Of a DNA stretch of 64,000 nt, positions 20,455 through 44,185 are shown piece by piece. The notes below the pieces were generated by a model that saw only the letters and a program-made list of their open reading frames with translations, was not told the origin of the DNA and did not search any database. The position numbers were made by a program, and so were the translations under genes. The stretch covers positions 4,666 through 68,665 of the forward strand of contig CANQKO010000004.1 in the NCBI GenBank assembly GCA_947624505.1. Reading direction: 5' to 3'. Numbering within the stretch: position 1 is the stretch's first letter; each line of letters starts with the position of its first letter. This DNA comes from an uncultured Bacilli bacterium. Lineage in GTDB: Bacteria; Bacillota_I; Bacilli_A; RF39; UBA660.

Positions 20455-22623
20455 ATGAAAATTAAGAGAGTCTATGGGCTAATTGCACCCATATTGTTTA
20501 TTATGGAACTCTGTTCCATAATTTTAGTAATGCAGAATTACAATAATAAAGATAAGCTAGAGGTATATAAAACCGAAAAAACATATACAAGTGGCTTTGC
20601 AATGTACAAGCAAAGAACAGATAAAACATATGAAGAGATAAATGATACAGCATTTCCTACAAGTGGTTATTTATTAAATAATGAACAAAGTAAATGTTAT
20701 GGGTATGATAATAAACCAATAACACCAATACCTGTTACACAAGGATTAACAAAAGGAAGTATAGATGGAAGAGTAACAATAGAAAGTAGTAATACGATTT
20801 ATTGTGTATTGTATTTTGATTTAGATAATAAAGTACCAGAAGTAAATGAATTTAGTATAACCGGAAAGACAAGTAGTGGTACTATATTAAATAATGGTTA
20901 TACCTATCAAACAGATAATATACCATATACATTAGAATATGTTGATACAGATGTAACACAATATTGTATAAGTAATACAAGTGAATGTACAGAATGGAAA
21001 GAAATAAGTGAAAAAATAGATACATTAACCATAGATAATTCTGATGGAGAAAAAACAATGTATATATATTTAAAAGATAAAGCCAATAATGTATCAGTAA
21101 CAACAACTAAATCAACAGCAAAGATAATAGTAGATCAAACAAAACCAGTAATAAATACTTTCACCTTAACAGGAACAGCAGATGAAGGACAACAATTAAG
21201 TGATAGTTCACAATATACTCATACAAATAATATAACATATAATGCAACAATAACCGAGAGTAATATATCTGAGTATTGTGTATATGAAGATAATTGTAGT
21301 TATACAAGTTTAACATCAACAACATTAACAAATCAAAATTATACATTAAAAGATACAGAAGGAAGTCATACAGTTAATATAAGAGTAAAAGATAAAGCAG
21401 GAAATGAATCAGCTGTAGAAACCAAAAGTATAACATTAGATAAAACAAATCCAGTGGCAACCATTTCATCTAGTTCTAAAGATACAAGTAGTATAACAGT
21501 AACAGTAGGTTATAGTGGAAATGACTCAATAATAGGAAGACAATGTAGAATAAGTAATGGAAGTTGGGTAACAGCATCTAATACAAATGGAAGTTGTACA
21601 ATAAGTAATTTAAAAGATGGAACACAATATACCATAGAAGGAAGAGTAAGAGATGCATCAGGAAGATGGAATACAACATACCCAAGTGTTAATGTAACAA
21701 CAGATAAAAAAGAAATAACGGGAAGTTATTTATATAGTAATCCACCAAAAGGATTAACGACAACTAAATTAGGAGGAATGAAGAGATTTGTAGGACAATG
21801 TGATGCAGCTGATGGTTCTTGTTCAAATGTGGTCGACAATTTCGTGTGTTTCGGATATACTGCTGAATCAGAATGTGCAGCACCAGTGAGCGAAAACGAT
21901 TACTTATATCGTATAATTGGAATTACGAGCAATGGAAGAATGAAATTAATTAAGAATAAACCGTTGAGTGGAAGTTTTGTTTGGGACAGTAACTCTAGAA
22001 GTAATATAACTTGGCCAAATAGCGAGTTATTTAGTAAGTTGAATGGAAACGAATTCTTAACGAATTTATCTTCTAATTGGGTAGATAAAATAGTACTGAC
22101 GTCTTGGTTATATGGAAATTATCGTGATGGTCTCAGTACCACTGATCATAACTACGACAATGAGACGGCAATTAACCAGTACTACGTGGAAACCGGCCAA
22201 CGAGAGGTAATGGGAGGTAGTGGAGATCCCGTGGGTGGATCAATGTCGAGGTGGACTTTGAGTGCTCCCGGTAGAGTTAGTCTGATGACACCGAGTGATT
22301 TTACGTTCGCAGCGTATGGTCTAGGAACAAAGAGGTGTATCGCTGGGGTGCCGTGTGAGAAAAGCTGGATGCATGTTGGGAATAATGGTTGTTCGCAAAC
22401 TTATCCAGAAGGTCTTTTCAGAGAATGGACAATGGTTCGTGAAGGGTATGTGTCAGAAATTTTTCAGTATTCTGTGGTAGCGGAGCACGTCCGTGGTGGA
22501 TATGCGACAGGGGGCGTGACTACTGAAGTTGGTATAGTGAGACCGGTCTTCTTCCTTTCTCCAACAACTGTGATTTCCTCTGGTTCTGGAACTTCAACAG
22601 ATCCTTATATTATAAGCAAATAA
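20455..22623 (+). CDS. large secreted/anchored surface protein with Ig-like repeats and a compositionally foreign C-terminal domain
   Basis: N-terminal hydrophobic anchor. Three modules end in KDKA(N/G)N(V/E)S-type strands. The C-terminal ~280 aa end in GIVRPVFFL (reminiscent of DUF6273-type domains, from memory). Sharp GC jump near 21790. Confidence 0.7.
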   Translation: MKIKRVYGLIAPILFIMELCSIILVMQNYNNKDKLEVYKTEKTYTSGFAMYKQRTDKTYEEINDTAFPTSGYLLNNEQSKCYGYDNKPITPIPVTQGLTKGSIDGRVTIESSNTIYCVLYFDLDNKVPEVNEFSITGKTSSGTILNNGYTYQTDNIPYTLEYVDTDVTQYCISNTSECTEWKEISEKIDTLTIDNSDGEKTMYIYLKDKANNVSVTTTKSTAKIIVDQTKPVINTFTLTGTADEGQQLSDSSQYTHTNNITYNATITESNISEYCVYEDNCSYTSLTSTTLTNQNYTLKDTEGSHTVNIRVKDKAGNESAVETKSITLDKTNPVATISSSSKDTSSITVTVGYSGNDSIIGRQCRISNGSWVTASNTNGSCTISNLKDGTQYTIEGRVRDASGRWNTTYPSVNVTTDKKEITGSYLYSNPPKGLTTTKLGGMKRFVGQCDAADGSCSNVVDNFVCFGYTAESECAAPVSENDYLYRIIGITSNGRMKLIKNKPLSGSFVWDSNSRSNITWPNSELFSKLNGNEFLTNLSSNWVDKIVLTSWLYGNYRDGLSTTDHNYDNETAINQYYVETGQREVMGGSGDPVGGSMSRWTLSAPGRVSLMTPSDFTFAAYGLGTKRCIAGVPCEKSWMHVGNNGCSQTYPEGLFREWTMVREGYVSEIFQYSVVAEHVRGGYATGGVTTEVGIVRPVFFLSPTTVISSGSGTSTDPYIISK

Positions 22624-28924: not shown

Positions 28925-29953
28925 TTAGTTTAGTAAAAGAGTTATAGTTGTATCAACGCTTTGAAATGTATTAGCTGCTGGAGACATATAAACAACTTTA
29001 TCACCATTACCACTATATTTAACTTTAAAATCTTTTAAGGCTTTGGTGGCCTCGCTCTTACTCGTTCCTACCACATCAGGGACAACTAAATATTTAACAT
29101 CTAAATAAGAATATTCTTTAAGCATTCCACCACTTTGTTCTTTAATTCCTAATGTTTCTATAGCGCTCATTAGAATACTTCTCGCAATTGGCGCCGAGAC
29201 GGTTCCACCATATTGAGTGACACCTTTAGGATTATCGATAGCAACATAGACAATTACTTCAGGATCATTTGCGGGCAAAAAGCCAATAAAAGAAAGGGTA
29301 TAATTACCAACCATATATTTGCCATCTTTAACTTTTTGCGCCGTTCCAGTTTTACCACCAACACGGTAATTTTCAATGTAAGCATTTTTACCTGTTCCAT
29401 TAGCAACGACACTTTCAAGAGCAAAGCGAGCAGTGGCGGATGTCTCTGGGGAAATAACTCTTCTTTTTTCTTTCGGCTTATTTTCAAAAACAATGGTTTT
29501 ACTTACTTCATCAGTGGTATTCATAACTACATAAGGGGTATATAAAATACCACCATTAATCACAGCAGATACTGCCGTTATTTGTTGAATTGGCGTAACA
29601 CTTATACCTTGGCCAAAAGCGGTAGTGGCAAGTTCTAATGGCCCCATTTTTTCTTCTTTAAATAGAATACCATTTCCTTCACCATTTAAGTCAATACCCG
29701 TTTTACTCCCAAACCCAAAGTTTTTGATATAACTCATTAGTTTTTCTATGCCCAGTTTATTTCCTAAGGAAACAAAACCCGGATTACAAGAATTTTCAAC
29801 TACTTCTAGGTAGGTTTGCGTACCGTGCCCACCTCTTTTCCAACAGTGAAGAGTCCCTCCATCTACACTTATGGCCCCACTATCAGTAAAAGTATCTTTA
29901 AATAAATCAACTGTACCTTCTTCAATGGAAGATGCTAAAGTAATTATTTTAAA
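28925..29953 (-). CDS. SpoVD-like class B PBP, C-terminal fragment (transpeptidase remainder plus one PASTA domain), split by the element
   Basis: Begins ...TFKIITLASSIEEG, i.e. just after the SXXK serine. Contains SXN (SCNPGF), KTG (GKTGTAQK) and one PASTA domain. The annotated MVV start is element-derived sequence. Confidence 0.85.
   Translation of the reverse strand, partial: FKIITLASSIEEGTVDLFKDTFTDSGAISVDGGTLHCWKRGGHGTQTYLEVVENSCNPGFVSLGNKLGIEKLMSYIKNFGFGSKTGIDLNGEGNGILFKEEKMGPLELATTAFGQGISVTPIQQITAVSAVINGGILYTPYVVMNTTDEVSKTIVFENKPKEKRRVISPETSATARFALESVVANGTGKNAYIENYRVGGKTGTAQKVKDGKYMVGNYTLSFIGFLPANDPEVIVYVAIDNPKGVTQYGGTVSAPIARSILMSAIETLGIKEQSGGMLKEYSYLDVKYLVVPDVVGTSKSEATKALKDFKVKYSGNGDKVVYMSPAANTFQSVDTTITLLLN
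29946..29953. repeat. element junction core ATTTTAAA (copy 1)
   Basis: Identical to 33323-33330. The extended match is ATTTTAAAnGT. Confidence 0.8.
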
Positions 29954-29977
29954 CGTCACTACCATTTAGTGACGTTT
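29951..29977. repeat. 11-bp perfect inverted repeat at the element end (AAACGTCACTA-ccatt-TAGTGACGTTT)
   Basis: Read directly. Abuts the core repeat on the element side. Candidate recombinase half-site or a hairpin after the ATPase gene. Confidence 0.7.
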
Positions 29978-29985
29978 AATATTAT

Positions 29986-31278
29986 TTAATCTTTTAGAGC
30001 TGTTATAGGAATAACTATAACGCCATCACTTCTAGTATAAATAGCATTAGAAAGTCCACAAATAACGCATAAGCTTTTTGGAGGATTACCCCCTTTTTCT
30101 TTAATAATATTACTAACTTTAATTAAATTATTCGCTGCCTCTTCGATTTGACCAGCCCCAAGTTTAATTTCAAATGCTATATAATTACCGTCTTCAATTT
30201 CCACTACTGCATCAAATTCATTACCATCATAGTCTTGATAATGAAACAAATTCCAATTATTTGCTTCAGCATATATTCTTAAATCTCTTACTACCATTGC
30301 TTCAAAGAAAAAACCAAAAGTGAGTAAATCATTAACGCACATATCAACTGTCATATTGAGTAGAGAAGTAGCAATAGAAGGATCAACAAAATGCCTTTTC
30401 TCCATTTGTTTTACACGCATACTACTTCTAATATTAGAATTAAAAGGCAATTGATTTTCTATTAAATATAATTTACTTAAATCTTCCAAATATTCGGTAA
30501 TAGTTTTTACATCGATATCTAAATTATCTACCCCTTGAATATCGCTTCTTAATTTAGCAATTGATGAAGTTGTAGATTCATTCCTTGAAAGTGATCTAAG
30601 TAATAACATCATTTTATTTAAATCTCTTTTAGAATCACTAATTCTATTTATATCTGTATCAATAATTTCTTTAATATATTCTTTAGGTAATTTAATAGCT
30701 TCATCAAAAGGAACATCAATGCTTCCAGGAAATCCTCCTCTTAAAACTAACTTTATAATATCTTTCAAATTAATATCTCGTGTTTTTTTACTTTTAACTT
30801 TATTATTATAAATATCTTTTAAAGAAACATCTCCCGAAGAATCGCCAGATTCATATAAACTCATTGGATACATTTTTAATTTTTTTATCCTTCCAGCTCC
30901 TGAATGTTTAATTTTATCTAATTTCTTTTTTGGTAATACAGTAGAGCCCGTTAAAATATATTTACCTTTAACTCCATCTTCATCACACTTATATCTAGTT
31001 GCATCCCAAATCTCTGGCACCTCTTGCCATTCATCAATTAATCTTGGTGCTTCACCTTCAAAAATAAGTGATATATCAGTTTCGGCAAGCCTTCTATTTT
31101 GATAATTACCGCTAGGATCCATAAGTAAAAATTCGCTTTTAGCATGTTTCCTTCCTGCCCAAGTTTTACCAATCCACTTGGCTCCAACAATGTTTATTGC
31201 CCCATAAGCTTTTAAACTATTTTCTATTTGCTTATCAATTAATCTTGGTTTATATTGTGACAATTTCATCAACTCCAT
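29986..31278 (-). CDS. AAA-type ATP-binding protein (AAA_14/DUF4143-like) with a C-terminal PD-(D/E)xK-like motif
   Basis: Walker A GAKWIGKT, Walker B RLIDEWQ, C-terminal DAVVEIEDGNYIAFEIKLG. Domain order is typical of the DUF4143 ATPase family. Confidence 0.7.
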   Translation of the reverse strand: MELMKLSQYKPRLIDKQIENSLKAYGAINIVGAKWIGKTWAGRKHAKSEFLLMDPSGNYQNRRLAETDISLIFEGEAPRLIDEWQEVPEIWDATRYKCDEDGVKGKYILTGSTVLPKKKLDKIKHSGAGRIKKLKMYPMSLYESGDSSGDVSLKDIYNNKVKSKKTRDINLKDIIKLVLRGGFPGSIDVPFDEAIKLPKEYIKEIIDTDINRISDSKRDLNKMMLLLRSLSRNESTTSSIAKLRSDIQGVDNLDIDVKTITEYLEDLSKLYLIENQLPFNSNIRSSMRVKQMEKRHFVDPSIATSLLNMTVDMCVNDLLTFGFFFEAMVVRDLRIYAEANNWNLFHYQDYDGNEFDAVVEIEDGNYIAFEIKLGAGQIEEAANNLIKVSNIIKEKGGNPPKSLCVICGLSNAIYTRSDGVIVIPITALKD

Positions 31279-31401
31279 ATATTTATTATATAATATTAAG
31301 TAAATATTGTCTATTATATCGGATGATTTTTTGACATTTTATTGGATGAAATTTTTGAATTTCATTGGATAGCTTTTTTCGATGATAAAGTGTTAAAAAA
31401 A

Positions 31402-33129
31402 TTATAATGTTTCAAGATAAACATTATAATTATAATTGTTTTGTTTTTTATCTTTTCTTTTAGCATCTTTTGAGACATAATTTTTATTATCTATATATAA
31501 TATTTCGTTATCTAATGAGCCATTTAAATGTTTTGCTCCTTTATTTTTTTCTATTAATAAATCATTTAGGTTTAAATAGATATCTAAGTGAACTCTATAT
31601 CTATCATTATCAATTTTAGATACAATAATTTCATCTAAAAATTTTTTAATAAAGTCTTCTAATAAATTATATTCTAATTCATTTTCTATATATTTTTTAA
31701 TATCTAATCTATTTTTTTTAAAATTTAAAATATTTTCTTTTTCTCTTAAAATATCTTCTTTTTGTCTAATTAAAATATTTAACTCTTTTTCATACTTTTT
31801 AAATTGGATTTTTAGTTCATCTTTAGTTAGATCTTTATTAAATACTAAATCAAGAGCCATTGTTTTTTTATCTTCAATTCTGCTTATATTATCTTCAATA
31901 TTTTGTAAGTCATCATCTTGATTAAAATTTTCAATATCTTTATATAACATATATAGATCATTTACAATTTTCTTTTTATTTATAGGAATCTTTTTCATAA
32001 TATCATCCATAATTTTATATAAGTCAGCTTCCGCAATAATTGGTGTTTCACAAGCCATAAGACGATACTTTAAATACATACCACAACACCATACAGGACG
32101 CCTTTTTTTCTTACTACCATGACTTCTTTGAAAGTTAGTATTATGATATTTACAATATAATTTAGAAGAAAAAGCGTATTTTAATCCGCCATTAAAAGAA
32201 TTATTATTTTGATAATTTTTAGTTCTTATTTTTAAAATATCATTTGCTTTATTCCATAATTCTTCCGCCACTATTGGGGGAATTATTGTTTCGTTTGCCC
32301 TATATATAACTTGTTTATCTTCACTTATTTTAATTCTTTTTTTAGTTCGATAATCAATAACTTCACTTGTTTTGCCCCGATAATATCCTTTATATTTAGG
32401 ATTAGATATTATTCTTTTTAAAGTATCTTTATCATAATAATTACCATTTTTATTATAATAATTAAGACTTGCTAATACTTTTGCTAATTTATATAAACCA
32501 TAATTTCCACTAGCATATAATTCAAATATTTTTCGGACTAATTTGGCTTCACTTGGAACAATCACTAATTTACAATTTTCTTTTTTATACCCAATAATAT
32601 TAGATGAGCCTAAAACATGGCCTTTTTTTATTGCTTCCATATGGCCAAATTTTATTCTTCCCGATAATTTTCTTGATTCATCTTGAGCCAAATTAAACAT
32701 TATATTTAAAATAAGTTCTGAATTAGCATCAAAAGTATTTAAATTTTGATTTTCGAAATAAATACCAACATTAGCGTTTTTTAATATGCGTATGTAATGA
32801 ATACTATCTTCTAAATCTCGAGCAAAACGGGATACTTCTTTAGTAATTATTAAATCAAATTTGCCTTTTTTGGCATCATCAATCATTTTTTTAAATCCCC
32901 ATCTTTTTTCAACTCTTACTCCCGATATTCCTTCGTCAATATAACCATTCACATATGTCCAGTTTGGTTTAGATTTAATATAATTTTCATAATAACTTTG
33001 TTGATTTTCTAAACTATTTAATTGATTATCACTTTCGGTTGACACTCTTGCATAAAAGCATACTCTAAGGGGTAAATTAACTATTTTTTCACCATTCATA
33101 ACTAATTTAGCAATTTCTAAAAAATTCAT
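31402..33129 (-). CDS. large serine recombinase (resolvase N-domain, recombinase domain, zinc ribbon, coiled coil)
   Basis: Catalytic-serine motif FYARVSTESDNQ, VSRFARD, Cys cluster CKYH...CCGMY...C, long C-terminal coiled coil. 575 aa. Confidence 0.9.
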   Translation of the reverse strand: MNFLEIAKLVMNGEKIVNLPLRVCFYARVSTESDNQLNSLENQQSYYENYIKSKPNWTYVNGYIDEGISGVRVEKRWGFKKMIDDAKKGKFDLIITKEVSRFARDLEDSIHYIRILKNANVGIYFENQNLNTFDANSELILNIMFNLAQDESRKLSGRIKFGHMEAIKKGHVLGSSNIIGYKKENCKLVIVPSEAKLVRKIFELYASGNYGLYKLAKVLASLNYYNKNGNYYDKDTLKRIISNPKYKGYYRGKTSEVIDYRTKKRIKISEDKQVIYRANETIIPPIVAEELWNKANDILKIRTKNYQNNNSFNGGLKYAFSSKLYCKYHNTNFQRSHGSKKKRRPVWCCGMYLKYRLMACETPIIAEADLYKIMDDIMKKIPINKKKIVNDLYMLYKDIENFNQDDDLQNIEDNISRIEDKKTMALDLVFNKDLTKDELKIQFKKYEKELNILIRQKEDILREKENILNFKKNRLDIKKYIENELEYNLLEDFIKKFLDEIIVSKIDNDRYRVHLDIYLNLNDLLIEKNKGAKHLNGSLDNEILYIDNKNYVSKDAKRKDKKQNNYNYNVYLETL

Positions 33130-33260
33130 TTATATTCCTCACATTTTTTTAATAACTTTTCATTAACACATAAAAATGTTTTTTCGTCAATAAGATTTTT
33201 TTTATATAAATTTTGATTAATAATTATTTCAATATTTAAATAAAACAAATAATTATCCAT
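33126..33260 (-). CDS. 44-aa ORF translationally coupled to the recombinase (ATGA overlap)
   Basis: MDNYLFYLNIEIIINQNLYKKNLIDEKTFLCVNEKLLKKCEEYK*. Its TGA overlaps the recombinase ATG. It lies inside the element and no family was recognised. Confidence 0.3.
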   Translation of the reverse strand: MDNYLFYLNIEIIINQNLYKKNLIDEKTFLCVNEKLLKKCEEYK

Positions 33261-33322
33261 TCTCATCACCACTTAATAATACGTTTTTATAACTTTTATT
33301 ATGTCTATAAACTGGCGTTGCA

Positions 33323-33330
33323 ATTTTAAA
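33323..33330. repeat. element junction core ATTTTAAA (copy 2)
   Basis: Identical to 29946-29953. Encodes F-K-I of the STFKI active-site segment on the minus strand. Confidence 0.8.
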
Positions 33331-34215
33331 AGTACTACCAGGTTCAAAAGTCATCCAAATGGGTAAGTTTCTATTAATAACTTCTTCTGAGTAATCTTGA
33401 TATTTAGATGGATTAAAAGAGGGCAGACTTCCCATTGCTAGTATTTCGCCTGTTTTAGGTTTCATTACAATACTTAAAGCAGCATCAGCATTATATTTAT
33501 CGGTGGCATTTTTAAGTTCATTATCAACAGCTTTAACAAGTTCAATATCGAGTGTTAATTTTAAAGTCATTCCTTTAGTCGGAGCAACATAACTATCCGG
33601 TATTTCTAATTTATTTCCTTTGCCATCACTATAATATTTAAGTTCCCCATTCGTTCCTTTTAAATATTCATCATAGGTAAGTTCAAGTCCTGATAATCCT
33701 TGATTATCACTTCCAACAAAACCTATAATATGAGCTAAAGTTTCTCCATAAGGATAATATCTTTTAGAATCAACTACTAAATAAACTCCATCATATCCTA
33801 AAGCTTCAATTTTATCAGCAACTTCGCTATCTAAATCCATTCCTTTACGAATAATTTCCATACTACTATTTTTGGCAACATATTTATATACATCATCATA
33901 AGAACAATTTAATACCTCGGCAATATCTTTGGCAACTTTTTCTTTATCTTTAATTTGATTAGGCACTACATAAATTGTGGTTGTAACTATACTAGTAGCT
34001 AGAATATTACCGTTTCGATCAACTATGTCTCCTCTTGGGGCATTAATAGTCATTTTTCTACTCCATAAATCTTCAGTTATCTTGGATAATTTATTATAAG
34101 ATATTACTTGAATATAAAATACTTTACCAATAATTAATAGAAGCGCAATAGATACAACAATTACCACAAATCTAATTCTTATATGAATATCATTAAAAAA
34201 CATCTTCTTCACCAC
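33323..34215 (-). CDS. SpoVD-like class B PBP, N-terminal fragment (TM anchor, dimerisation domain, up to the SXXK motif)
   Basis: TM anchor, PBP dimer domain, ends at FEPGSTFK-I. The listed ORF then runs 22 more codons into the element (ATPVYRHNK...) before a stop at 33253. Confidence 0.85.
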
Positions 34216-36674: not shown

Positions 36675-37298
36675 TTAAAATTTACGATATAAGCCTATAG
36701 CAACTCCTAAAATGGTACAATTACTTAATATAATTGGTTCCATTGTATCATTTTCTGGTTGTAATCTGATATGGCCATTTTCTTTATAGAATCTTTTTAG
36801 CGTTGCTTCATTTTCCATAGTCATTGCAACAACTATATCGCCATTTTTGGCATTGCTTTGCTTTTTAACAATAACATAATCACCATCAAAGATACCAGCA
36901 TTAATCATACTTTCACCACTTACGTGAAGAGTAAATACCTCTTCTTTAGCGGGAATCAAAGATGCCGGTAAATCAAAAAACTCATTAGGTTGTTCAATGG
37001 CAGTAATGGGACTACCGGCTGTTATTTTACCAAGAAGAGGAACTTTAACAACATCTTCATTAGTTTTTAAATATTCATTTTCACATAATATTTCAATTGT
37101 TCTAAATTTGTTACTTGTTGTTTTTATATAACCTAATTGTTCAAGATTTTTTAAATGAACAAAGACTGTTGCGGGACTTGATAATCCAACACCTTTACAT
37201 ATTTCTCTAATTGCAGGTGGATATCCGTGTTCAGCCGTATATTTTTTGACATAATCTAAAATATCGTTTTGTCTTTTAGTTAATTCTTTAGTATTCAT
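36675..37298 (-). CDS. lexA: LexA repressor
   Basis: Winged HTH (IREICKGVGLSSPATVFVHLKNLEQLGYI), cleavage-site region, S24 peptidase motifs SGESMINAGI and ATLKRF. Confidence 0.95.
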   Translation of the reverse strand: MNTKELTKRQNDILDYVKKYTAEHGYPPAIREICKGVGLSSPATVFVHLKNLEQLGYIKTTSNKFRTIEILCENEYLKTNEDVVKVPLLGKITAGSPITAIEQPNEFFDLPASLIPAKEEVFTLHVSGESMINAGIFDGDYVIVKKQSNAKNGDIVVAMTMENEATLKRFYKENGHIRLQPENDTMEPIILSNCTILGVAIGLYRKF

Positions 37299-37342
37299 TT
37301 CATCACTCCTAAATTCATTTTACACTAAATATTGTTAAATGT

Positions 37343-37355
37343 CAAACAATTGTTT
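37343..37355. promoter_or_regulatory. SOS (Cheo-type) box 1, cAAACaattGTTT
   Basis: Palindrome resembling the Gram-positive LexA operator GAAC-N4-GTTC. Lies 45 nt upstream of the lexA start. Confidence 0.6.
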
Positions 37356-37382
37356 AATTTTAATAAAATTTTCAAAAAAAGC

Positions 37383-37413
37383 TTGAAACGAACAATTGTT
37401 TTTTGGTAAGATG
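37383..37413 (+). promoter_or_regulatory. promoter TTGAAA-18-TAAGAT with embedded SOS box 2 (CGAACaattGTTt, 37389-37401)
   Basis: -35 TTGAAA at 37383-37388. A near-consensus Cheo box fills the spacer. Drives the divergent small ORF at 37438. Confidence 0.6.
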
Positions 37414-37437
37414 ATAGGGAAAGAAGGAGTGATAATT

Positions 37438-37575
37438 ATGAAAAAAACATTAATTGATTTAGGAGGGATTATATTATTTTATTTAATATTAATTTTTGGC
37501 GTAATTATCCTGAACAATCGATTTACCGAACTAAATAAAAATATTAATGCTGGTTTAATAGTAAGTACTCATTGA
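37438..37575 (+). CDS. 45-aa single-pass membrane peptide, divergent from lexA (candidate SOS-induced division inhibitor, YneA-position)
   Basis: GAAGGAG RBS 8 nt upstream. MKKTLIDLGGIILFYLILIFGVIILNNRF... has one TM helix. Not in the supplied ORF track because it is too short. Confidence 0.5.
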   Translation: MKKTLIDLGGIILFYLILIFGVIILNNRFTELNKNINAGLIVSTH

Positions 37576-37629
37576 CATAAGTACTTTTTTTCTTTAAAAT
37601 ATCATTTTGACAGTGAAAAGAGGAATATA

Positions 37630-38421
37630 ATGGAAATAACTTCAATCGATAAAATAAAGAAAGCTTATTCTTTTAGCAATGAAAATTTAACTGCCTATCA
37701 AAACATTATTGATTTTAAAGGTAAAAATGTTTTATCAGTTGTGGGAAGTGGTGACCAATACTTTTCTTTTCTTCTTTTTGGGGCAAAAGAAATAGACTTG
37801 TTTGATAACAATTTGATGGCATTATATTATTTTTATTTAAAATATTATGCTATTATTTTATTAAACTATAAAGAATTTATTGATAGTTTTTATTATTATA
37901 AAAATACTCAGAAAAATTATAGTAAAATTAGAGATTGCCTCCCAGATGAAATAAAAACTTTTTTTGATGAGGTTTTAAAAAATAAGGTCTTAAACTCGTT
38001 ATTATATAAGCCTATTCCTTTATCAATTCATACTGATAATGTTGATAGAACAATTCCTTATTTAAAAGGTAAACGTTATTATGAATTAAAAGAATTACTT
38101 AAAAGCACACCTTTTCCCAATTTGTTTTTACATGATTTACGCGATTTATATGCATCATTAGATAGAAATTATGATATTATGATATTTTCTAATATATATG
38201 CTTATTTAAATATGGAAGTTAAAGCATATCGTCAATTTTTAAAAAAATATGAAAAATTTTTAAATGATGGTGGTGTTATTGAAGCTAACTATGAATGGAT
38301 ATCCTTTGAACGCGATTTTAAAAAGTATGGTTTTAAAAAACATTATGTTGATTCTGCCAATGATAAAATGATGGCTTTAAATGATAAAGATAATATCATA
38401 ACTTTAAAAAAACACTTTTAA
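37630..38421 (+). CDS. DUF3419 (BtaA-like SAM-dependent transferase fold) family protein, tentative
   Basis: VLSVVGSGDQYFSFLL...IDLFDNNLMALYYFYLK...LNYKEF matches my memory of the DUF3419 pattern (ItSaGcNaLdyll...aVDlNpaQ.aLLeLK...L.yeeF). Needs an HMM check. Confidence 0.45.
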   Translation: MEITSIDKIKKAYSFSNENLTAYQNIIDFKGKNVLSVVGSGDQYFSFLLFGAKEIDLFDNNLMALYYFYLKYYAIILLNYKEFIDSFYYYKNTQKNYSKIRDCLPDEIKTFFDEVLKNKVLNSLLYKPIPLSIHTDNVDRTIPYLKGKRYYELKELLKSTPFPNLFLHDLRDLYASLDRNYDIMIFSNIYAYLNMEVKAYRQFLKKYEKFLNDGGVIEANYEWISFERDFKKYGFKKHYVDSANDKMMALNDKDNIITLKKHF

Positions 38422-38569
38422 ATGAATGTTGCAAAATAACGCAAAAAGTTAAAAAAATAAGTTAGAAAGCAACAAATTAAACCAAAACATACTAATATAT
38501 TAAGATAAAATAAATATTAATTAATTGTTTTATTTGTAAATTAAGTTTATAATTATTATGAGGGATGAT

Positions 38570-39697
38570 ATGAAAAAGAAAATATTAGTGATGTATGCAA
38601 GATATGGTTCAGGACATAAAGCAATTGCGGAATATGTGGCATCATACATAGCTACTCATAATGATTATGAAGTAAAAATAATTGATATAACTGATTATGG
38701 TAATAAACTTGCTAAATTCACCATCAAGTTAATGGATTTTGTTTTAAATCATCATCAAGAATTTTTGTTCAATGTTGGTTATGAACTTGTTGATAATCGC
38801 ATATCATCATTTGGCAATAACAAACTAGTAAAAGGTTTGTACGATAATAAACTATTAAGAGAAGAAATAATAAACTTTAAACCGGATATTACTATTTCTA
38901 GTCATTTTTATTGTAGTAATTTAATAACTTATTATAATAAATTAGGCTTAATTAAAAGTAAATTATTAACGATTATTACTGATTATCGGGCTCACGAATT
39001 TTGGATTAGAAATAAAAATAGTGAAGATGGTTATATAGTTGGTAATAAAATAGTTAAAGAAGAATTAATAAAAAGAGGAGTCGATCATAAGAAAATATAT
39101 CCTTATGGTTTGCCTTTAAATATTACTAAAATAAATAATTTAGATAAAGAAGAGGTTATATATAAAAGATATAATATTAAAAATAATCAAAAAGTTTATT
39201 TATTTTTTGGTGGTTCATCGGGGGGAAGTATGTATTATTTTAACTATTTTAAAACAATTTGCAAATTAGAATTAAATAAAGATATCATTTTTATAAGTGG
39301 AAAAAATACTAAATTAAAAAATGCTTGTGAAAAATATGTTAAGAAAAATAATATTAAGAATATTAAAGTATTAGGATATTCAACTGATGTTTTAAATTTA
39401 ATGAAAATAAGTGATTTAGTAATTAGTAAACCTGGTGGGGCTACGGTAACCGAATGTTTAGAAATGAAAGTGCCAATGCTTTTAGTACCAGGAATTGGGG
39501 GTCAAGAAAAATATAATGCAAGATTTGTGGCCAGAAAAAAATATGGCATTAAAGTAAGAGGAACTTTTTCTTTTAAAAGAAATTTAAAAAGATTAGAAAA
39601 TAATCCTTCTTTAATAAGAAAGATGGAAGAAAGATTAAATACACTAGATAATAATGATTCGATTGTTAAAATAAATAATTTAATTAAGAAGATGTAG
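38570..39697 (+). CDS. GT28 MGDG-synthase-family diacylglycerol glycosyltransferase (UgtP-like)
   Basis: KILVMYARYGSGHKAIAEY N-terminus and SKPGGATVTECLEMKVPML...GQEKYNA C-terminal motif. Confidence 0.75.
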   Translation: MKKKILVMYARYGSGHKAIAEYVASYIATHNDYEVKIIDITDYGNKLAKFTIKLMDFVLNHHQEFLFNVGYELVDNRISSFGNNKLVKGLYDNKLLREEIINFKPDITISSHFYCSNLITYYNKLGLIKSKLLTIITDYRAHEFWIRNKNSEDGYIVGNKIVKEELIKRGVDHKKIYPYGLPLNITKINNLDKEEVIYKRYNIKNNQKVYLFFGGSSGGSMYYFNYFKTICKLELNKDIIFISGKNTKLKNACEKYVKKNNIKNIKVLGYSTDVLNLMKISDLVISKPGGATVTECLEMKVPMLLVPGIGGQEKYNARFVARKKYGIKVRGTFSFKRNLKRLENNPSLIRKMEERLNTLDNNDSIVKINNLIKKM

Positions 39698-39706
39698 GTG
39701 GTATTA

Positions 39707-41668
39707 ATGAGTAAAATAAACGAAAAAATAATTAATAATATCAAAATGCTTAGTTTAGATATGATTTATAAAGCGAGAAGTGGTGATGCTGGAATTGTTT
39801 TTTCAGCTGTTAATGTCTTTTATAGTTTATTTATGGATCATTTAATATTTGATCCTAATGATATTTCTTTTATTAATAAAGATCGTTTATTAGTATCAAA
39901 TAGATTATTACCTCTTTTTTATAGTTGTAATTATTTATTTTATAAAGATATGCCTTTAGATGATTTAAAAGATTATAAAACATTTAAATCCAATATCACT
40001 GGTAATAATAGAATGAGCAAACTTAATCCAATTAGTAGTTTAATTAATAGTGATATTGTCTCATCATCAGTAGGAGTATCTTTAGGAAGAGAATATTTAA
40101 ATGGTTTACTAACTATTGAAGATAGTAAAAATAAATTAGTTAATTTTAAAACTTATTGTATTATTACTTTAGATGAGCTAATGAGTGGCATCGCTTATGA
40201 AGCAATGAGTTTTGCTAGTATTCAAAATTTAAATAATTTAATCTTTATAGTTATCAAAGATGAAGTAGGGAAAGATAGTAGTAATAAAGAAACATTTAAT
40301 GAAGATTTAATCGATCGTTTCATTGCTCTAAATTATAATGTAGAAGAAATAAATGATAATTTAAATTCGATTGATGGAGCATTAATTGATGCTAAAAACA
40401 GTAAAAAGCCATCAATCATTATTGTTAAAAGTATTTATGGTAAATCATCTAAAATTGAAAATAGCAATAAATTATATAATAAACCTTTAAGTGAAGAAGA
40501 GATGACCGAATTAAGAAGTAAATATGGTTTAGCTAATCCTTTTGATGTGTCTTTAGAAGTAATAAAAGAAATAAGAAAAAATATTAGTAAAAGATTAAGT
40601 AAATATTTAATTAATTATCAAACACTTAAACAAGAAGGAATGAAAGATTTAAAAATAAAAGAAATAATAGATTTTTTAACGAATAAAAAAGTAAATGTGG
40701 AAATTAATCCCGCTAATATTAAAATTAATGAAAGCTATGAAGAAGAATTAGTAAAAAGTAATAGTAAAATTTTAAATCTAATTGCTAATAAAAGTCCATT
40801 TATAATTTGTGCCAGTGATGATAATTTCTTATATACTTTAGCAAGTATTAAAAAATCTGGAATTATGTCTAAAGAAAATCGAACCGGAAGAAATATCTTA
40901 TTTGGTAATCGTGTATTAGCTATGGGAGGGGTGTGTTATGGTCTTGCTAGTCTCGGCTTTAAAGTTTTTGTTAGTACTCCTTTAATTAATGAAAGCTTTT
41001 TAAAAAATACGCTGCGTTTATCAACTCTTACTAATGTTGATCTTAACTTTATTTTTACTCAAGATAGTTTTACTAATTCCTATTTAGATAATGAGTTTTT
41101 TGCAAGTAGCGAAATAAATGATTTAAGAAGTATTCATAATTTAGTGTTATATAGGCCTTGTGATATTAAAGAAATAATTGGGGTTTATAGTACTATATGT
41201 AAACTTAATAAACCATCTGCTTTAGTTATCGGTAGTGAAGTAGTAAATGTTTTAAAAGGAACACATGAAAAATATGTTTTAGCAGGAGCTTACCGAGTAA
41301 AAAAAGAAAGCGATGATTTGGTGGATGCAATAATTGTCGCAACTGGTAGTGAAGTATCTCTCGCCACAAATATTATTGAAGAATTAAAACAATATGATTT
41401 AAATATTCGTCTTGTTTCTTTAGTTTCCTCAACTTTATTTGAATTACAAAGTGAAAAATATCAAAATATGTTACTTCCTAAAGACATTAAAACTTTTACT
41501 TTAGAATTTGGTAATCCAACTTATTTAGAAAAATACGCTACTAGTAAAGATTATGCTTTGGGAGTTAATGAATTTTTTGTTGGGGGTACTAAAGAAGAAA
41601 AATTAAATTATTATCATCTTAATAAAGATGCCATTAAAGCTAAAATAATTGATTTATTAAAAAAATAA
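39707..41668 (+). CDS. transketolase homolog with degenerate cofactor and catalytic motifs (probable pseudoenzyme)
   Basis: Colinear with Bacillus Tkt over its full length, but the motifs are replaced: SGHPG to SGDAG, SAGHGS to SNRLLP, GDGDLMEG to TLDELMSG, YDSNDISLDG to IKDEVGKDS, GVREFAMG to GNRVLAMG, THDSIAVGEDGPTHEP to TQDSFTNSYLDNEFFAS. Confidence 0.8.
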   Translation: MSKINEKIINNIKMLSLDMIYKARSGDAGIVFSAVNVFYSLFMDHLIFDPNDISFINKDRLLVSNRLLPLFYSCNYLFYKDMPLDDLKDYKTFKSNITGNNRMSKLNPISSLINSDIVSSSVGVSLGREYLNGLLTIEDSKNKLVNFKTYCIITLDELMSGIAYEAMSFASIQNLNNLIFIVIKDEVGKDSSNKETFNEDLIDRFIALNYNVEEINDNLNSIDGALIDAKNSKKPSIIIVKSIYGKSSKIENSNKLYNKPLSEEEMTELRSKYGLANPFDVSLEVIKEIRKNISKRLSKYLINYQTLKQEGMKDLKIKEIIDFLTNKKVNVEINPANIKINESYEEELVKSNSKILNLIANKSPFIICASDDNFLYTLASIKKSGIMSKENRTGRNILFGNRVLAMGGVCYGLASLGFKVFVSTPLINESFLKNTLRLSTLTNVDLNFIFTQDSFTNSYLDNEFFASSEINDLRSIHNLVLYRPCDIKEIIGVYSTICKLNKPSALVIGSEVVNVLKGTHEKYVLAGAYRVKKESDDLVDAIIVATGSEVSLATNIIEELKQYDLNIRLVSLVSSTLFELQSEKYQNMLLPKDIKTFTLEFGNPTYLEKYATSKDYALGVNEFFVGGTKEEKLNYYHLNKDAIKAKIIDLLKK

Positions 41669-41733
41669 AATCTCCGACATAAACTGACATTTATTTTAAT
41701 GAATGTTTTATATAATATCTATAAGGTGATATT

Positions 41734-42150
41734 ATGCGTAGTTTTTATATTTTTAAAATCAAAAGAGAAATAAGTATTTTAACAAGAGAAATACCTTACA
41801 ATTTATATAAAACAATTGATAATTTATATTATTTAGATACTAACAATATTGATGTATCATTTCAAGTTTATAAAGATTTATTTGATACTTTTGATATTAA
41901 TTATATGAATAAAAGAATATATAATTTATTTAAAAGTAATAGATATTATACTTATGAAAATAATATTCATAAAATAGAAAATAAATATCGTCCCGAAAAG
42001 ACAATCTTAAAAGTTTACAAATCACATTTATATATTAAAAGTGATGCAATAAATCCAACTCTTTTAGTTAATTATTTAATGAGTGATAATCTTTTTGTTT
42101 GTGATTTTAAAAATAAAGATTATTTTTGGTTAAATGAATTTGTGAGGTAG
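41734..42150 (+). CDS. sirA: SirA-like sporulation inhibitor of replication (tentative)
   Basis: 138 aa directly after tkt, as in B. subtilis (tkt-sirA). N-terminus FYIFKIKRE and C-terminus FVCDFKNKDYFWLNE resemble SirA YYTYLIKEE and FLAMDFNSKRYGWLNP (recalled from memory). Confidence 0.5.
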   Translation: MRSFYIFKIKREISILTREIPYNLYKTIDNLYYLDTNNIDVSFQVYKDLFDTFDINYMNKRIYNLFKSNRYYTYENNIHKIENKYRPEKTILKVYKSHLYIKSDAINPTLLVNYLMSDNLFVCDFKNKDYFWLNEFVR

Positions 42151-42883: not shown

Positions 42884-44185
42884 ATGGATATGTACGAAGA
42901 ATATTTAAAAGATGTTTTTGATAATGCTTATGTGGTGGCATTACCTTTAGTAGAAAAAATTAATACCGTTAGTGTATGTCCTCATTGTGGTGGAACTTAT
43001 ATAGATACCTATTGCAAGTATTGCGAGCAAGAAAATAAGGATTTAGAAGAAAGTGTCGTTGCTTTAAAAACACTTTTATCACGTATCCAAGAAATGCTTA
43101 CCAATATTCCGGTAACGAAAACTAAATATCATCAATTTTTAACTCTTTTAGCTAAACTTAAAAATGTTAATCTTCCCGAAGTAGAAGAATTATTTTCAAA
43201 ATTTAATTATAATGAAGTTTTAGAAAAAATCTATTTAGATATTAAAAATAAAGGAATGAATGATATACCTTTAAACAAATCAGAAATTGATGTTAGTGAG
43301 GCTCTCGTTTATCGTAATTTAGATCGTAAAAAACGTAATAATAAGCAAGTTTTAGATTTAGTTAGTTTATATTTAAGAAAAATAATTATTAATTCTATAA
43401 AAGATGAAAAAGAATTAATCATAAGTTATGAGGCTTTTCAAACTCTAATAAAAGAATTTACCGAGGTAGAAATTAGTTACTTTTATAAGCAAGGTAGATG
43501 TCAAATTTTTGAAGGACCTATTTTCGAAAGAGATAATAGTGTTGTTTTAGGCTTGGCTGATTATAACTCTGTTTCTTTATCTGATATTGATATTAAAGCC
43601 TTTTATTATGATGGTAATAATTCATTACTTGAAACGATTTTTCACGAAATAAATCACGTAAGACAACAAGCTATAACTTATAAACAAAAAGCAGTTTCAG
43701 AGCTTGACTTATTACAAATAAAAGACCGTGTAATAGGACGTTATTTAAAAAATTATATTAATGAAAATTATGCCAATCTTTCTTATGAAATTGAAGCTTA
43801 CTATTGTGGTTTAAGAGATCAAAGACTAGCTTTAAATAGTATTGGAATTAATTTTAATCAAGAAACCAATTTGCGAGTGGAGAGAGATTTAGAAGCTTTA
43901 GCTAAAAAAATGTTAAATAAAGAAAGAACTTTAAATGGTAAGAGTATCGATATGGATCAAGAATTTGCCAAAATACTATCTACGCGTCCCCAACTCTTAA
44001 ATGAATATCCTTGTTTAAAAAGATTATATAAGTTAGAAAATAATGGTGTTGTAAGAAAAAGTGATGAAGAATTAACAAATGAATTAAAAGATATTTTAGC
44101 AAGTGGTATAAGTGAAGAAGAAAAACAAAAATATGTGACAATGTATGGAATTTATGGTATAAATGTGCTTGACTTTAAAAGATAA
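42884..44185 (+). CDS. hypothetical protein with N-terminal zinc ribbon and HExxH motif
   Basis: CPHCGG...CKYCEQ ribbon and internal FHEINHVRQQ. No family recognised. Confidence 0.55.
   Translation: MDMYEEYLKDVFDNAYVVALPLVEKINTVSVCPHCGGTYIDTYCKYCEQENKDLEESVVALKTLLSRIQEMLTNIPVTKTKYHQFLTLLAKLKNVNLPEVEELFSKFNYNEVLEKIYLDIKNKGMNDIPLNKSEIDVSEALVYRNLDRKKRNNKQVLDLVSLYLRKIIINSIKDEKELIISYEAFQTLIKEFTEVEISYFYKQGRCQIFEGPIFERDNSVVLGLADYNSVSLSDIDIKAFYYDGNNSLLETIFHEINHVRQQAITYKQKAVSELDLLQIKDRVIGRYLKNYINENYANLSYEIEAYYCGLRDQRLALNSIGINFNQETNLRVERDLEALAKKMLNKERTLNGKSIDMDQEFAKILSTRPQLLNEYPCLKRLYKLENNGVVRKSDEELTNELKDILASGISEEEKQKYVTMYGIYGINVLDFKR

What the first reader, a model, noticed from the sequence alone, without database searches (positions are those of the whole stretch)
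39707..41668. Syntenic, full-length transketolase homolog that has lost essentially all ThDP-binding and catalytic motifs
**Seen in sequence**
- The 653-aa ORF aligns end to end with Bacillus Tkt as I recall it, and sits in the Bacillus position (between lexA and sirA).
- Every motif I can check is replaced:
  - SGHPG to SGDAG
  - SAGHGS to SNRLLP
  - TPGHPE to ITGNNR
  - GDGDLMEG to TLDELMSG
  - YDSNDISLDG to IKDEVGKDS
  - HGAPLG to YNKPLS
  - GGSADL to CASDDN
  - GVREFAMG to GNRVLAMG
  - THDSIAVGEDGPTHEP to TQDSFTNSYLDNEFFAS
- The reading frame is nonetheless intact over about 2 kb in very AT-rich DNA, where random frames close quickly.

**Established knowledge**
- These residues bind ThDP and the metal ion, and supply the catalytic histidines and glutamate.

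**Inference**
- This is a maintained, catalytically dead transketolase-fold protein with a new role (scaffold or regulator).
- It may be translationally linked to the upstream glycosyltransferase, whose stop abuts its RBS and start.
Basis: partly seen in the sequence, partly recalled or inferred. Interest (0 to 1): 0.7.

Follow-up and report, generated by a model that had tools for sequence, protein, structure and literature searches.

The report
Dead transketolase kept by selection
An uncultured gut bacterium carries, in the normal transketolase gene position, a full-length transketolase look-alike that has lost almost every residue needed for catalysis yet is still preserved by natural selection, so it probably now does a non-enzymatic job that is still unknown.

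Summary
ORF 39707-41668 (+, 653 aa) is a full-length, three-domain transketolase homologue. The AlphaFold model has pLDDT 89.8 and matches solved transketolases at TM 0.93. Only 2 of 15 cofactor, metal and substrate positions keep the canonical residue. It scores 325 bits against the NCBIfam transketolase model, whose cut-off is 682.

It is not a decaying pseudogene. At least 38 species of uncultured gut Bacilli keep an open, syntenic orthologue (related genomes belong to GTDB order RF39). dN/dS is 0.03-0.22 in close pairs, against 0.02-0.05 for close pairs of intact transketolases.

- Catalytic residues were lost independently at least five times among relatives that otherwise keep an intact tkt at the same lexA-tkt-sirA locus.
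- One subclade has deleted the former active-site loops outright and still keeps a 552-554 aa ORF.
- Many related genomes have no tkt next to sirA at all.

The tight junction with the upstream glycosyltransferase is real and conserved. It predates the inactivation and is not universal.

My best reading is a thiamine-free, non-catalytic transketolase-fold protein that acts by binding. Its partner is unknown. I could not determine whether the same genome also has a working transketolase.

The parts
39707..41668 (+). Coding sequence of the degenerate transketolase-like protein (653 aa plus TAA stop).
   Evidence: ORF list. Pfam and NCBIfam. PDB alignment. AF2 model with pLDDT 89.8. Foldseek TM 0.93 to S. 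aureus, S. pneumoniae and B. anthracis transketolases.
39696..39701 (+). Shine-Dalgarno AGGTGG for the gene. It overlaps the TAG stop (39695-39697) of the upstream glycosyltransferase and lies 5 nt before the ATG.
   Evidence: Sequence. The stop-to-start gap is -1 to 20 nt in almost all of the main degenerate clade.
39707..40666 (+). N-terminal (PP) domain, aa 1-320. The ThDP diphosphate and metal motif GDG...N is replaced by TLD...D.
   Evidence: Transketolase_N matches aa 5-295. Key columns.
39779..39793 (+). SGDAG, replacing SGHPG. The His26 equivalent is Asp27.
39896..39913 (+). SNRLLP, replacing S(A/G)GHGS. The His66 equivalent is Arg66.
39995..40012 (+). ITGNNR, replacing TPGHPE. The His100 equivalent is Asn100. 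The loop has low model confidence and is deleted in the short-form relatives.
   Evidence: pLDDT 76-79 for aa 91-110. Deletion seen in L181, L185, L187 and L192.
40166..40189 (+). TLDELMSG, replacing GDGDLMEG. The metal-ligand Asp155 equivalent is Leu155 and the Gly156 equivalent is Asp156.
40253..40279 (+). IKDEVGKDS, replacing YDSNDISLDG. The Asn185 equivalent is Asp185. The adjacent loop has the lowest model confidence in the protein.
   Evidence: pLDDT 55 for aa 191-200.
40475..40492 (+). YNKPLS, replacing HGAPLG. The His261 equivalent is Tyr257.
40724..41281 (+). Middle (Pyr-like) domain, aa 340-525. The fold is kept but Pfam Transket_pyr no longer detects it.
   Evidence: No PF02779 hit. 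Secondary structure and Foldseek alignment over the full length.
40808..40825 (+). CASDDN, replacing GGSADL. The Ser385 equivalent is kept (Ser370). S-(N/D)-D-N is conserved within the degenerate clade.
40904..40927 (+). GNRVLAMG, replacing GVREFAMG. The cofactor-activating Glu411 equivalent is Val403.
41057..41107 (+). TQDSFTNSYLDNEFFAS, replacing THDSIAVGEDGPTHEP. His461 becomes Gln452, Asp469 becomes Leu460 and His473 becomes Phe464.
   Evidence: pLDDT 75-76 for aa 451-470. The loop is deleted in short-form relatives.
41282..41665 (+). C-terminal domain, aa 526-653. It is more conserved within the degenerate clade than among intact relatives.
   Evidence: Transketolase_C_1 3.6e-19. Mean column conservation 0.69 against 0.61.
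38558..39697 (+). Upstream glycosyltransferase, similar to MGDG synthase, UgtP and diglucosyl-diacylglycerol synthase. It is probably co-translated with the gene.
   Evidence: Pfam MGDG_synth 5.2e-20 and Glyco_tran_28_C 1.3e-13. NCBIfam PRK13609 scores 149 bits against a cut-off of 500.
37630..38421 (+). DUF3419-like gene, the first long gene of the apparent operon.
   Evidence: Pfam DUF3419 1.2e-07. The best promoter-like site on the + strand is at 37572-37600, and no terminator-like site lies between 37.6 and 44.3 kb.
41734..42150 (+). SirA-family gene immediately downstream. This neighbour is conserved both with intact tkt and with degenerate copies.
   Evidence: Pfam SirA 24.9 bits against a cut-off of 26. 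13 of 13 relatives match SirA, best E 3.2e-8. Synteny.
36675..37298 (-). lexA, transcribed divergently.
   Evidence: LexA_DNA_bind 1e-19 and Peptidase_S24 3.5e-35.

Best explanation
The gene is the positional orthologue of the Bacillus-type transketolase gene. In this lineage of uncultured, AT-rich gut Bacilli it has become a pseudoenzyme.

**Shown.**
- The protein still folds as a three-domain transketolase.
- It can no longer bind Mg-thiamine diphosphate in the canonical way. The GDG...N motif, the activating glutamate and the aromatic residues that stack on the cofactor are all replaced.
- It has lost the histidines, arginines and aspartate that hold and turn over sugar phosphates.
- Purifying selection keeps it open and full length across a clade of at least 38 species.

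**Inferred.**
- It acts through binding, as a structural or regulatory subunit, and not through catalysis.
- It probably still forms a homodimer.
- The selected part is the scaffold and not the old pocket.
- The same loss of catalytic residues happened independently several times in related lineages while the gene was kept. The simplest reading is that the ancestral enzyme already had a second, non-catalytic role. That role remained under selection once pentose-phosphate catalysis became dispensable in these reduced genomes.

**Partner.** The partner is not identified. The candidates are the products of its own operon: the translationally coupled glycolipid glycosyltransferase upstream and the SirA-family protein downstream.
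For: **Dead for the transketolase reaction.**
- 13 of 15 key positions are replaced, including D155>L, G156>D, N185>D, E411>V and all five histidines.
- The protein scores less than half the NCBIfam equivalog cut-off.

**Fold kept.** pLDDT 89.8 and pTM 0.90. TM 0.93 at 2.4-2.5 Å over about 665 aligned columns to solved transketolases, at 21-27% identity.

**Orthologue, not a stray paralogue.** The order lexA(-) - [glycosyltransferase] - tkt - sirA-like is shared by degenerate, partly degenerate and intact relatives, and by Bacillaceae.

**Under selection.**
- dN/dS is 0.22 against the closest relative (neighbouring genes 0.01-0.43).
- It is 0.03-0.11 in eight other close pairs, with dS 0.2-0.7. 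Close intact pairs give 0.02-0.05.
- Every region of the protein has dN/dS of 0.12 or less, and the first 20 residues give 0.027.
- All 46 degenerate orthologues are open reading frames.

**Scaffold, not pocket.**
- Across the clade, conservation is lost at 32 positions that are at least 90% conserved in intact enzymes. Nearly all are active-site positions.
- Conservation is gained at 29 others, concentrated in the N-terminus, the interdomain linker (aa 295-345), aa 381-400 and the C-terminal domain.
- The low-confidence parts of the model are the former active-site loops.
- In L181, L185, L187 and L192 those loops are deleted, yet a 552-554 aa ORF persists in the same operon.

**Independent losses.** The tree places partly degenerate groups next to intact sisters, each with a different substitution pattern. 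They are L046; L039; L065/70/73/81 (Mycoplasma sp. CAG:472); L044/55/56/58/61/82; and L048.
Against: - No direct evidence exists for any binding partner or for dimerisation.
- In close pairs the former active-site segments are as constrained (dN/dS 0.10) as the rest of the protein.
- Several new polar residues in the pocket are conserved in the main clade: D27, D116, D185, D190, S370-(N/D)-D-N373, R402 and D453. A remodelled ligand site is therefore not excluded for this clade.
- About 36 of 79 related loci carry the SirA-like gene with no transketolase-like gene within 4 kb upstream. Whatever the protein does is dispensable, or is encoded elsewhere, in many relatives.
- The protein is the fastest-evolving gene of its neighbourhood apart from one ORF. 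Its mean distance is 0.82, against 0.14-0.42 for its neighbours.
- Co-evolution tests gave no stable partner.
- Absence of activity is inferred from sequence only.
Confidence: 0.6

Rival explanations
1. The protein has been neofunctionalised as an enzyme or small-molecule sensor. The former cofactor and substrate cleft has been rebuilt into a new, thiamine-independent ligand site, and that site is what selection maintains.
For: - Family-specific motifs sit exactly at the old pocket and are fairly conserved in the main clade: SGD.G, SNR(L/F)LP, T..DLMSG, IKD...KDS, S.(N/D)DN, G.RTLAMG, STPL and TQDTF.NTYE.
- dN/dS of these segments is 0.10 in close pairs.
- The basic His and Arg lining is replaced by Asp, Asn, Glu and hydrophobic residues. 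This is a consistent change of character and not random scatter.
Against: - Across the whole clade these positions are the least conserved.
- Several are occupied by five or more different residues, including H100, G114-L116, D155, D469 and H473.
- The loops that form the cleft are deleted in the short-form subclade, which still keeps the ORF.
- These loops have the lowest model confidence.
Confidence: 0.15
2. The protein is a non-catalytic partner of a working transketolase encoded elsewhere in the genome. It would form heterodimers and regulate the enzyme, as proposed for human TKTL1 with TKT.
For: - Transketolase active sites lie at the dimer interface (established knowledge). A dead subunit could therefore modulate a live one.
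- The rest of the genome could not be searched, so a second gene is not excluded.
Against: - The dead gene occupies the ancestral tkt locus, so it is not a duplicate.
- None of the assemblies carrying a degenerate copy appears among the hits of a scan with an intact-transketolase profile from close relatives, or twice in the first scan.
- Independent degenerations in several lineages would each need a second copy.
Confidence: 0.1
3. The gene is a pseudogene in slow decay, or a recently inactivated gene whose open frame is a leftover.
For: - It evolves faster than its neighbours.
- Some lineages show loop deletions.
- Many related genomes have lost the gene from this locus.
Against: - There are 46 open orthologues in very AT-rich DNA, at identities down to 32%.
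- dN/dS is 0.03-0.22 with dS up to 0.7.
- The N-terminus, start context and Shine-Dalgarno are conserved.
- The deletions are in frame and confined to surface loops.
Confidence: 0.03
4. The alignment register is wrong, or the residues are relocated, and the protein is still a thiamine-dependent transketolase.
For: None found. One metal-ligand position (I187, a backbone ligand) and Ser385 are retained.
Against: - Three independent alignments agree on the register: HMMER to PDB sequences, MAFFT with 35 intact relatives, and structure-based Foldseek over the full length.
- The flanking structural motifs are in register: NRDR, GRNI, RPxDxxE, GGY and ATGSEV.
Confidence: 0.02

Closest known systems
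Bacterial transketolase (Tkt/TktA, EC 2.2.1.1; NCBIfam TIGR00232; solved structures 8r3r, 8r3s, 3m49)
   Same: - Same three-domain fold over the full length (TM 0.93).
- Same length.
- Same chromosomal position, lexA ... tkt - sirA, as in Bacillaceae.
- Shared structural motifs NRDR, GRNI, RPxDxxE and GGY.
   Different: - 13 of 15 cofactor, metal and substrate positions are replaced.
- 325 bits against a cut-off of 682.
- Pfam Transket_pyr is not detected.
- 21-27% identity to solved enzymes.
- It should not be annotated as transketolase.
Human transketolase-like protein 1 (TKTL1), a transketolase paralogue with an internal deletion in the cofactor-binding domain. Its catalytic competence is disputed. 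This comparison is from memory and was not tested here.
   Same: A transketolase-derived protein that has lost part of the cofactor site, is nevertheless retained, and is thought to act at least partly through protein-protein association.
   Different: - TKTL1 is a duplicate that coexists with an active TKT. The protein here is the orthologue at the ancestral locus.
- TKTL1 keeps most catalytic residues and lacks one 38-residue segment. Here nearly all residues are substituted while the length is kept.
- Human-type transketolases match only the N-terminal domain, at E about 2e-6.
Partly degenerate transketolase orthologues of related gut Bacilli, for example Mycoplasma sp. CAG:472 (L073) and the L044/55/56/58/61/82 group
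   Same: Same locus, same length, also open and under purifying selection (dN/dS 0.06-0.14).
   Different: - They arose independently.
- They still keep the activating Glu411 equivalent, and some keep the Asp155 or His66/His461 equivalents.
- They may represent earlier stages of the same process, or altered enzymes.

Membership tests
Transketolase (EC 2.2.1.1; NCBIfam TIGR00232 equivalog) | Three-domain PP / Pyr / C-terminal fold of about 650-680 residues. | tested here: met
   AF2 pLDDT 89.8 and pTM 0.90. Foldseek TM 0.93 over the full length to 8r3s, 8r3r and 3m49.
Transketolase (EC 2.2.1.1; NCBIfam TIGR00232 equivalog) | Score at or above the curated equivalog cut-off. | tested here: not met
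   325.5 bits against a cut-off of 682.25. PRK05899.2-4 gives 302.8 against 788.
Transketolase (EC 2.2.1.1; NCBIfam TIGR00232 equivalog) | ThDP and metal motif G-D-G-X(25-30)-N (Asp155 and Asn185 in E. coli numbering). | tested here: not met
   T-L-D...D in the window protein. Asp155 is replaced by Leu, Gly156 by Asp and Asn185 by Asp.
Transketolase (EC 2.2.1.1; NCBIfam TIGR00232 equivalog) | Glutamate that activates the cofactor's aminopyrimidine (Glu411), and the aromatic residues that stack on it. | tested here: not met
   Glu411 is replaced by Val403, Phe434 by Pro425 and Phe437 by Asn428.
Transketolase (EC 2.2.1.1; NCBIfam TIGR00232 equivalog) | Substrate-binding and catalytic His26, His66, His100, His261, His461 and His473, plus Arg358, Arg520 and Asp469. 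| tested here: not met
   The window protein has D, R, N, Y, Q, F, V, S and L respectively. Only the Ser385 equivalent is kept.
Transketolase (EC 2.2.1.1; NCBIfam TIGR00232 equivalog) | Ketol transfer activity and ThDP binding of the protein. | not testable with these tools
   This needs purified protein.
Pseudoenzyme (a catalytically dead homologue of an enzyme, retained by selection) | Clear homology to an enzyme family, with loss of the residues essential for catalysis. | tested here: met
Pseudoenzyme (a catalytically dead homologue of an enzyme, retained by selection) | Maintained by purifying selection and not decaying. | tested here: met
   dN/dS 0.03-0.22. 46 open orthologues.
Pseudoenzyme (a catalytically dead homologue of an enzyme, retained by selection) | Demonstrated non-catalytic function. 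| not testable with these tools
   No partner was identified. Co-evolution signals were unstable.
TKTL1-type transketolase-like proteins | A paralogue that coexists with an active transketolase and has an internal deletion in the PP domain. | tested here: inconclusive
   The gene is a positional orthologue and has no such deletion.
SirA family (the downstream neighbour used for the synteny claim) | A match to Pfam PF10747 above the gathering score. | tested here: inconclusive
   The window protein scores 24.9 bits against a cut-off of 26. 13 of 13 relatives match, best E 3.2e-8. A profile search found no significant match to solved structures.

The most novel reading that the evidence does not exclude
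Transketolase in this order of gut Bacilli has an ancestral second function that does not need catalysis. Candidates suggested by its conserved lexA - glycolipid glycosyltransferase - tkt - sirA operon context are envelope glycolipid synthesis or the coupling of metabolism to replication and the cell cycle. That function would be the reason the gene survives repeated, independent loss of its active site. The lineage would then offer a natural separation-of-function series: intact, partly dead, fully dead, loop-deleted and absent. Such a series could be used to find a moonlighting role of a central metabolic enzyme.
Probability: 0.3. Interest if true: 0.75.

Novelty: new variant of a known kind. 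Interest (0 to 1): 0.62.

Why it matters
- **Annotation.** Automatic annotation would call this gene transketolase and credit these uncultured gut bacteria with a pentose-phosphate step they very probably cannot perform. That would distort metabolic reconstructions of a widespread, reduced-genome gut lineage.
- **Biology.** My full-text searches turned up no description of a bacterial pseudo-transketolase. A central-metabolism enzyme that is inactivated again and again yet kept under selection points to an unrecognised non-catalytic role of the transketolase fold.
- **Test material.** The graded series of natural variants gives direct material for testing that role.

Tried and rejected
1. **Search for a working transketolase in the same genomes.** No assembly carrying a degenerate copy appeared, but the test is not exhaustive.
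2. **Co-evolution (mirror-tree) with neighbours.**
   - With the short forms included, LexA gave the highest partial correlation (0.54-0.59).
   - Without them, the glycosyltransferase (0.54) and SirA-like (0.37) did.
   - The result is unstable and confounded by linkage, so I did not use it as evidence.
3. **Charge and composition.** There is no shift in pI or net charge between degenerate and intact proteins, except that the four short forms are basic (pI 8.7). His, Gly and Pro content falls, as expected from the loss of active-site loops.
4. **RNA elements.** There are no Rfam matches anywhere in the window, so no thiamine riboswitch.
5. **Solved-structure match for the SirA-like neighbour.** Nothing significant.
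6. **Literature.** No paper in the held library describes a bacterial transketolase pseudoenzyme, and none reconstructs the pentose-phosphate pathway of order RF39 in a way that helps.
7. **Public names for family members.** None are on record.
8. **Exact Bacillus SOS box GAAC-N4-GTTC.** No match in the window. Only relaxed palindromes are present.
9. **A self-correction.** I first mis-registered three key columns (D155, N185, R358). I corrected them after inspecting the alignments.
Full report
**1. What is in the sequence**

The ORF at 39707-41668 (+) encodes 653 aa. A Shine-Dalgarno AGGTGG at 39696-39701 overlaps the TAG stop of the upstream glycosyltransferase and lies 5 nt before the ATG. 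The conserved N-terminus MSK(I/L)D in relatives supports this start over the GTG at 39698.

The region is 23-24% G+C. By my own arithmetic a 653-codon open frame has a chance probability of order 1e-27. The identical protein occurs on four independent metagenome assemblies with the same neighbours.

**2. It is a transketolase homologue that has lost the active site**

- Pfam finds Transketolase_N (4.5e-46) and Transketolase_C_1 (3.6e-19) but not the middle Transket_pyr domain.
- The NCBIfam transketolase equivalog aligns end to end but scores 325.5 bits against a cut-off of 682.25.

I then compared the protein with 35 intact relatives. I scored 15 positions that established knowledge assigns to metal and cofactor binding, cofactor activation and substrate binding (E. 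coli numbering, recalled from memory). Only the I187 equivalent (a backbone ligand) and the S385 equivalent are retained. The window protein reads D R N L D D V Y V S V Q L F S for H26 H66 H100 D155 G156 N185 I187 H261 R358 S385 E411 H461 D469 H473 R520.

The fold is nevertheless intact. The AlphaFold2 model has pLDDT 89.8 and pTM 0.90. Foldseek matches S. aureus, S. pneumoniae and B. anthracis transketolases at TM 0.93 and rmsd 2.4-2.5 Å, with only 21-27% identity. The few low-confidence stretches (aa 91-110, 181-200, 241-260, 451-470) are the former active-site loops.

**3. It is a family, and it is under purifying selection**

A protein search found about 60 clusters, 39-82% identical and almost all full length, that share the degenerate motifs. 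The next hits, at about 30% identity, are mostly intact transketolases.

A scan of one genome per species found orthologues in uncultured gut 'Bacilli bacterium' genomes from rabbit, goat, sheep, human and mouse. Related loci include Candidatus Coprovivens, which GTDB places in order RF39 (PMC8035907).

All extracted genes are open. Nei-Gojobori dN/dS values are:

| Comparison | dN/dS | Note |
|---|---|---|
| Window vs closest relative L005 | 0.22 | dN 0.117, dS 0.527 |
| Neighbouring genes, same pair | 0.01-0.43 | |
| Eight other close pairs in the degenerate clade | 0.03-0.11 | dS 0.2-0.7 |
| Close pairs of intact transketolases | 0.02-0.05 | |
| Each region of the degenerate protein, pooled | 0.12 or less | N-terminal 20 residues 0.027 |

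So the gene is not decaying. Over long distances, however, it evolves about twice as fast as its neighbours or faster. Its mean distance is 0.82, against 0.14-0.42 for them.

**4. It is the orthologue at the ancestral locus**

The order lexA(-) - [glycosyltransferase] - tkt - SirA-like is shared by degenerate, partly degenerate and intact relatives. In Bacillaceae loci fetched here, lexA lies 1.6-2.3 kb upstream of tkt and a SirA-profile hit lies immediately downstream (L117, L121, L127, L148). The window's SirA-like protein is just under Pfam's cut-off, but all 13 relatives tested match SirA.

**5.

(a) *Repeated inactivation.* On a neighbour-joining tree the window's clade is monophyletic and fully degenerate. 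It contains the window plus 32 species in the first scan, and more were found later.

Partly degenerate forms are nested next to intact sisters, each with a different substitution pattern:
- L046, next to intact L043;
- L039;
- the Mycoplasma sp. CAG:472 group (L065, L070, L073, L081);
- L044, L055, L056, L058, L061, L082;
- L048.

That makes at least five further independent events. Among the 90 species loci classified, 46 are degenerate, 9 partial and 35 intact. This sample is biased by the query. An exhaustive profile search of 1.84 billion cluster representatives listed the 150 best hits. Among the 134 near-full-length ones, 29 are degenerate and 6 partial.

(b) *Loop deletion.* In L181, L185, L187 and L192 the orthologue is 552-554 aa and 32-36% identical to the window protein, while their neighbours are 57-87% identical. 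The missing segments are the H26, H100, N185, H261 and H461-H473 loops. The ORFs are intact and sit in the same operon.

(c) *Loss.* About 36 of 79 loci found with a SirA-like profile have no transketolase-like gene within 4 kb upstream. In L238, lexA abuts sirA directly.

(d) *Shift of constraint.* Compared with intact relatives, the clade has lost conservation at 32 positions, mostly active-site ones. It has gained conservation at 29 others, concentrated in the first 20 residues, the interdomain linker (aa 295-345), aa 381-400 and the C-terminal domain.

**6. The link with the glycosyltransferase**

The stop-to-start gap is -1 to 20 nt in almost all of the main degenerate clade, which is consistent with translational coupling. 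The exceptions are L023, where my start call gives 59 nt, and L027, which has no upstream ORF. The closest intact relative, L034, has the same junction (11 nt).

Other intact lineages have 53-112 nt spacers. In the short-form subclade, L185, L187 and L192 have 49-65 nt spacers (L181 could not be measured). Many of these spacers contain a TATAAT-like box. Many relatives have no glycosyltransferase at the locus.

The coupling is therefore real, but it predates inactivation and is not required.

**7. Interpretation**

*Shown:*
- the protein is dead for canonical ThDP chemistry, at the level of sequence;
- the fold is intact;
- it is the positional orthologue;
- it is under purifying selection;
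- inactivation recurred independently.

*Inferred:*
- it acts by binding rather than by catalysis;
- the scaffold, not the pocket, is what is selected;
- a second function probably existed before inactivation.

The main rival is a rebuilt ligand site. It is kept alive by the clade-specific conserved pocket residues and by the low short-term dN/dS of those segments. It is weakened by their long-term variability and by the loop deletions.

Decay and mis-registration are rejected.

**8. Comparison with what is known, and novelty**

The protein fails the defining sequence features of transketolase and should not be annotated as one. The nearest analogue is human TKTL1 (from memory). TKTL1 differs in being a paralogue with a single deletion.

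Full-text searches found no description of a bacterial transketolase pseudoenzyme. Public records give these proteins no name.

I rate it a new variant of a known kind: a pseudoenzyme derived from a central-metabolism enzyme. Its unusual feature is an evolutionary series running from intact to deleted.

Noticed in passing
window 28925-34215 (- strand): A class-B penicillin-binding protein gene is split by an insert of about 3.3 kb. The N-terminal part is ORF 33253-34215 (PBP dimerisation domain, running up to the STFK active-site motif). The C-terminal part is ORF 28925-29965 (transpeptidase plus PASTA). The insert encodes a large serine recombinase (31402-33129) and an AAA_14/DUF4143 ATPase (29986-31278). 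In the closest relative, L005, the two parts are contiguous in one gene, so this is a recent insertion. It could be a mobile element or a sporulation-type intervening element.
   Followed up: partly
window 37299-37600: The lexA upstream region carries two LexA-box-like palindromes, AAACAATTGTTT (37345-37356) and GAACAATTGTTT (37391-37402). They overlap the two best promoter-like sites. A 45-aa single-pass membrane ORF follows (37439-37576, MKKTLIDLGGIILFYLILIFGVIILNN...). It is transcribed divergently from lexA, in the position of the SOS cell-division inhibitors yneA and sosA of other Bacillota (that comparison is from memory). The strict GAAC-N4-GTTC box is absent.
   Followed up: partly
window 18251-19219 (-) and 41734-42150 (+): A SpoIVB peptidase (Peptidase_S55, 4.2e-70) and a SirA-family protein are present. 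These reduced-genome gut Bacilli, which are often labelled Mycoplasma or Tenericutes in public records, may therefore sporulate.
   Followed up: no
window 39707-41668 compared with L005: Between the window and its closest relative the transketolase-like gene has dS 0.53. Genes to its right have dS 0.05-0.16 and genes to its left 0.04-0.38. This mosaic of divergence suggests recombination within the locus.
   Followed up: no
window 42884-44185 (+): A 433-aa ORF has no Pfam match and contains an HEINH (HExxH-type) motif. It evolves very fast among relatives (22-94% identity; dN/dS 0.18-0.85) while its neighbours are conserved.
   Followed up: no
window 20455-22623 (+): A 722-aa ORF has no Pfam family at E 1e-5. 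It lies next to the mraW / PBP / ftsW / mraY cell-wall cluster.
   Followed up: no
window 41669-41733: The 65-nt spacer before the SirA-like gene contains TCCGACA. That is one mismatch from the reverse complement of the Spo0A box TGTCGAA (consensus recalled from memory). It also contains a TATAAT box, so the SirA-like gene may have its own sporulation-controlled promoter. Exact TGTCGAA boxes in the window are no more frequent than chance.
   Followed up: no
L048 (CAKOMQ010000009.1) and L193 (CAKOMQ010000013.1): In one genome the partly degenerate transketolase-like gene and the SirA-like gene lie on different contigs. The locus is therefore rearranged in some lineages.
   Followed up: no
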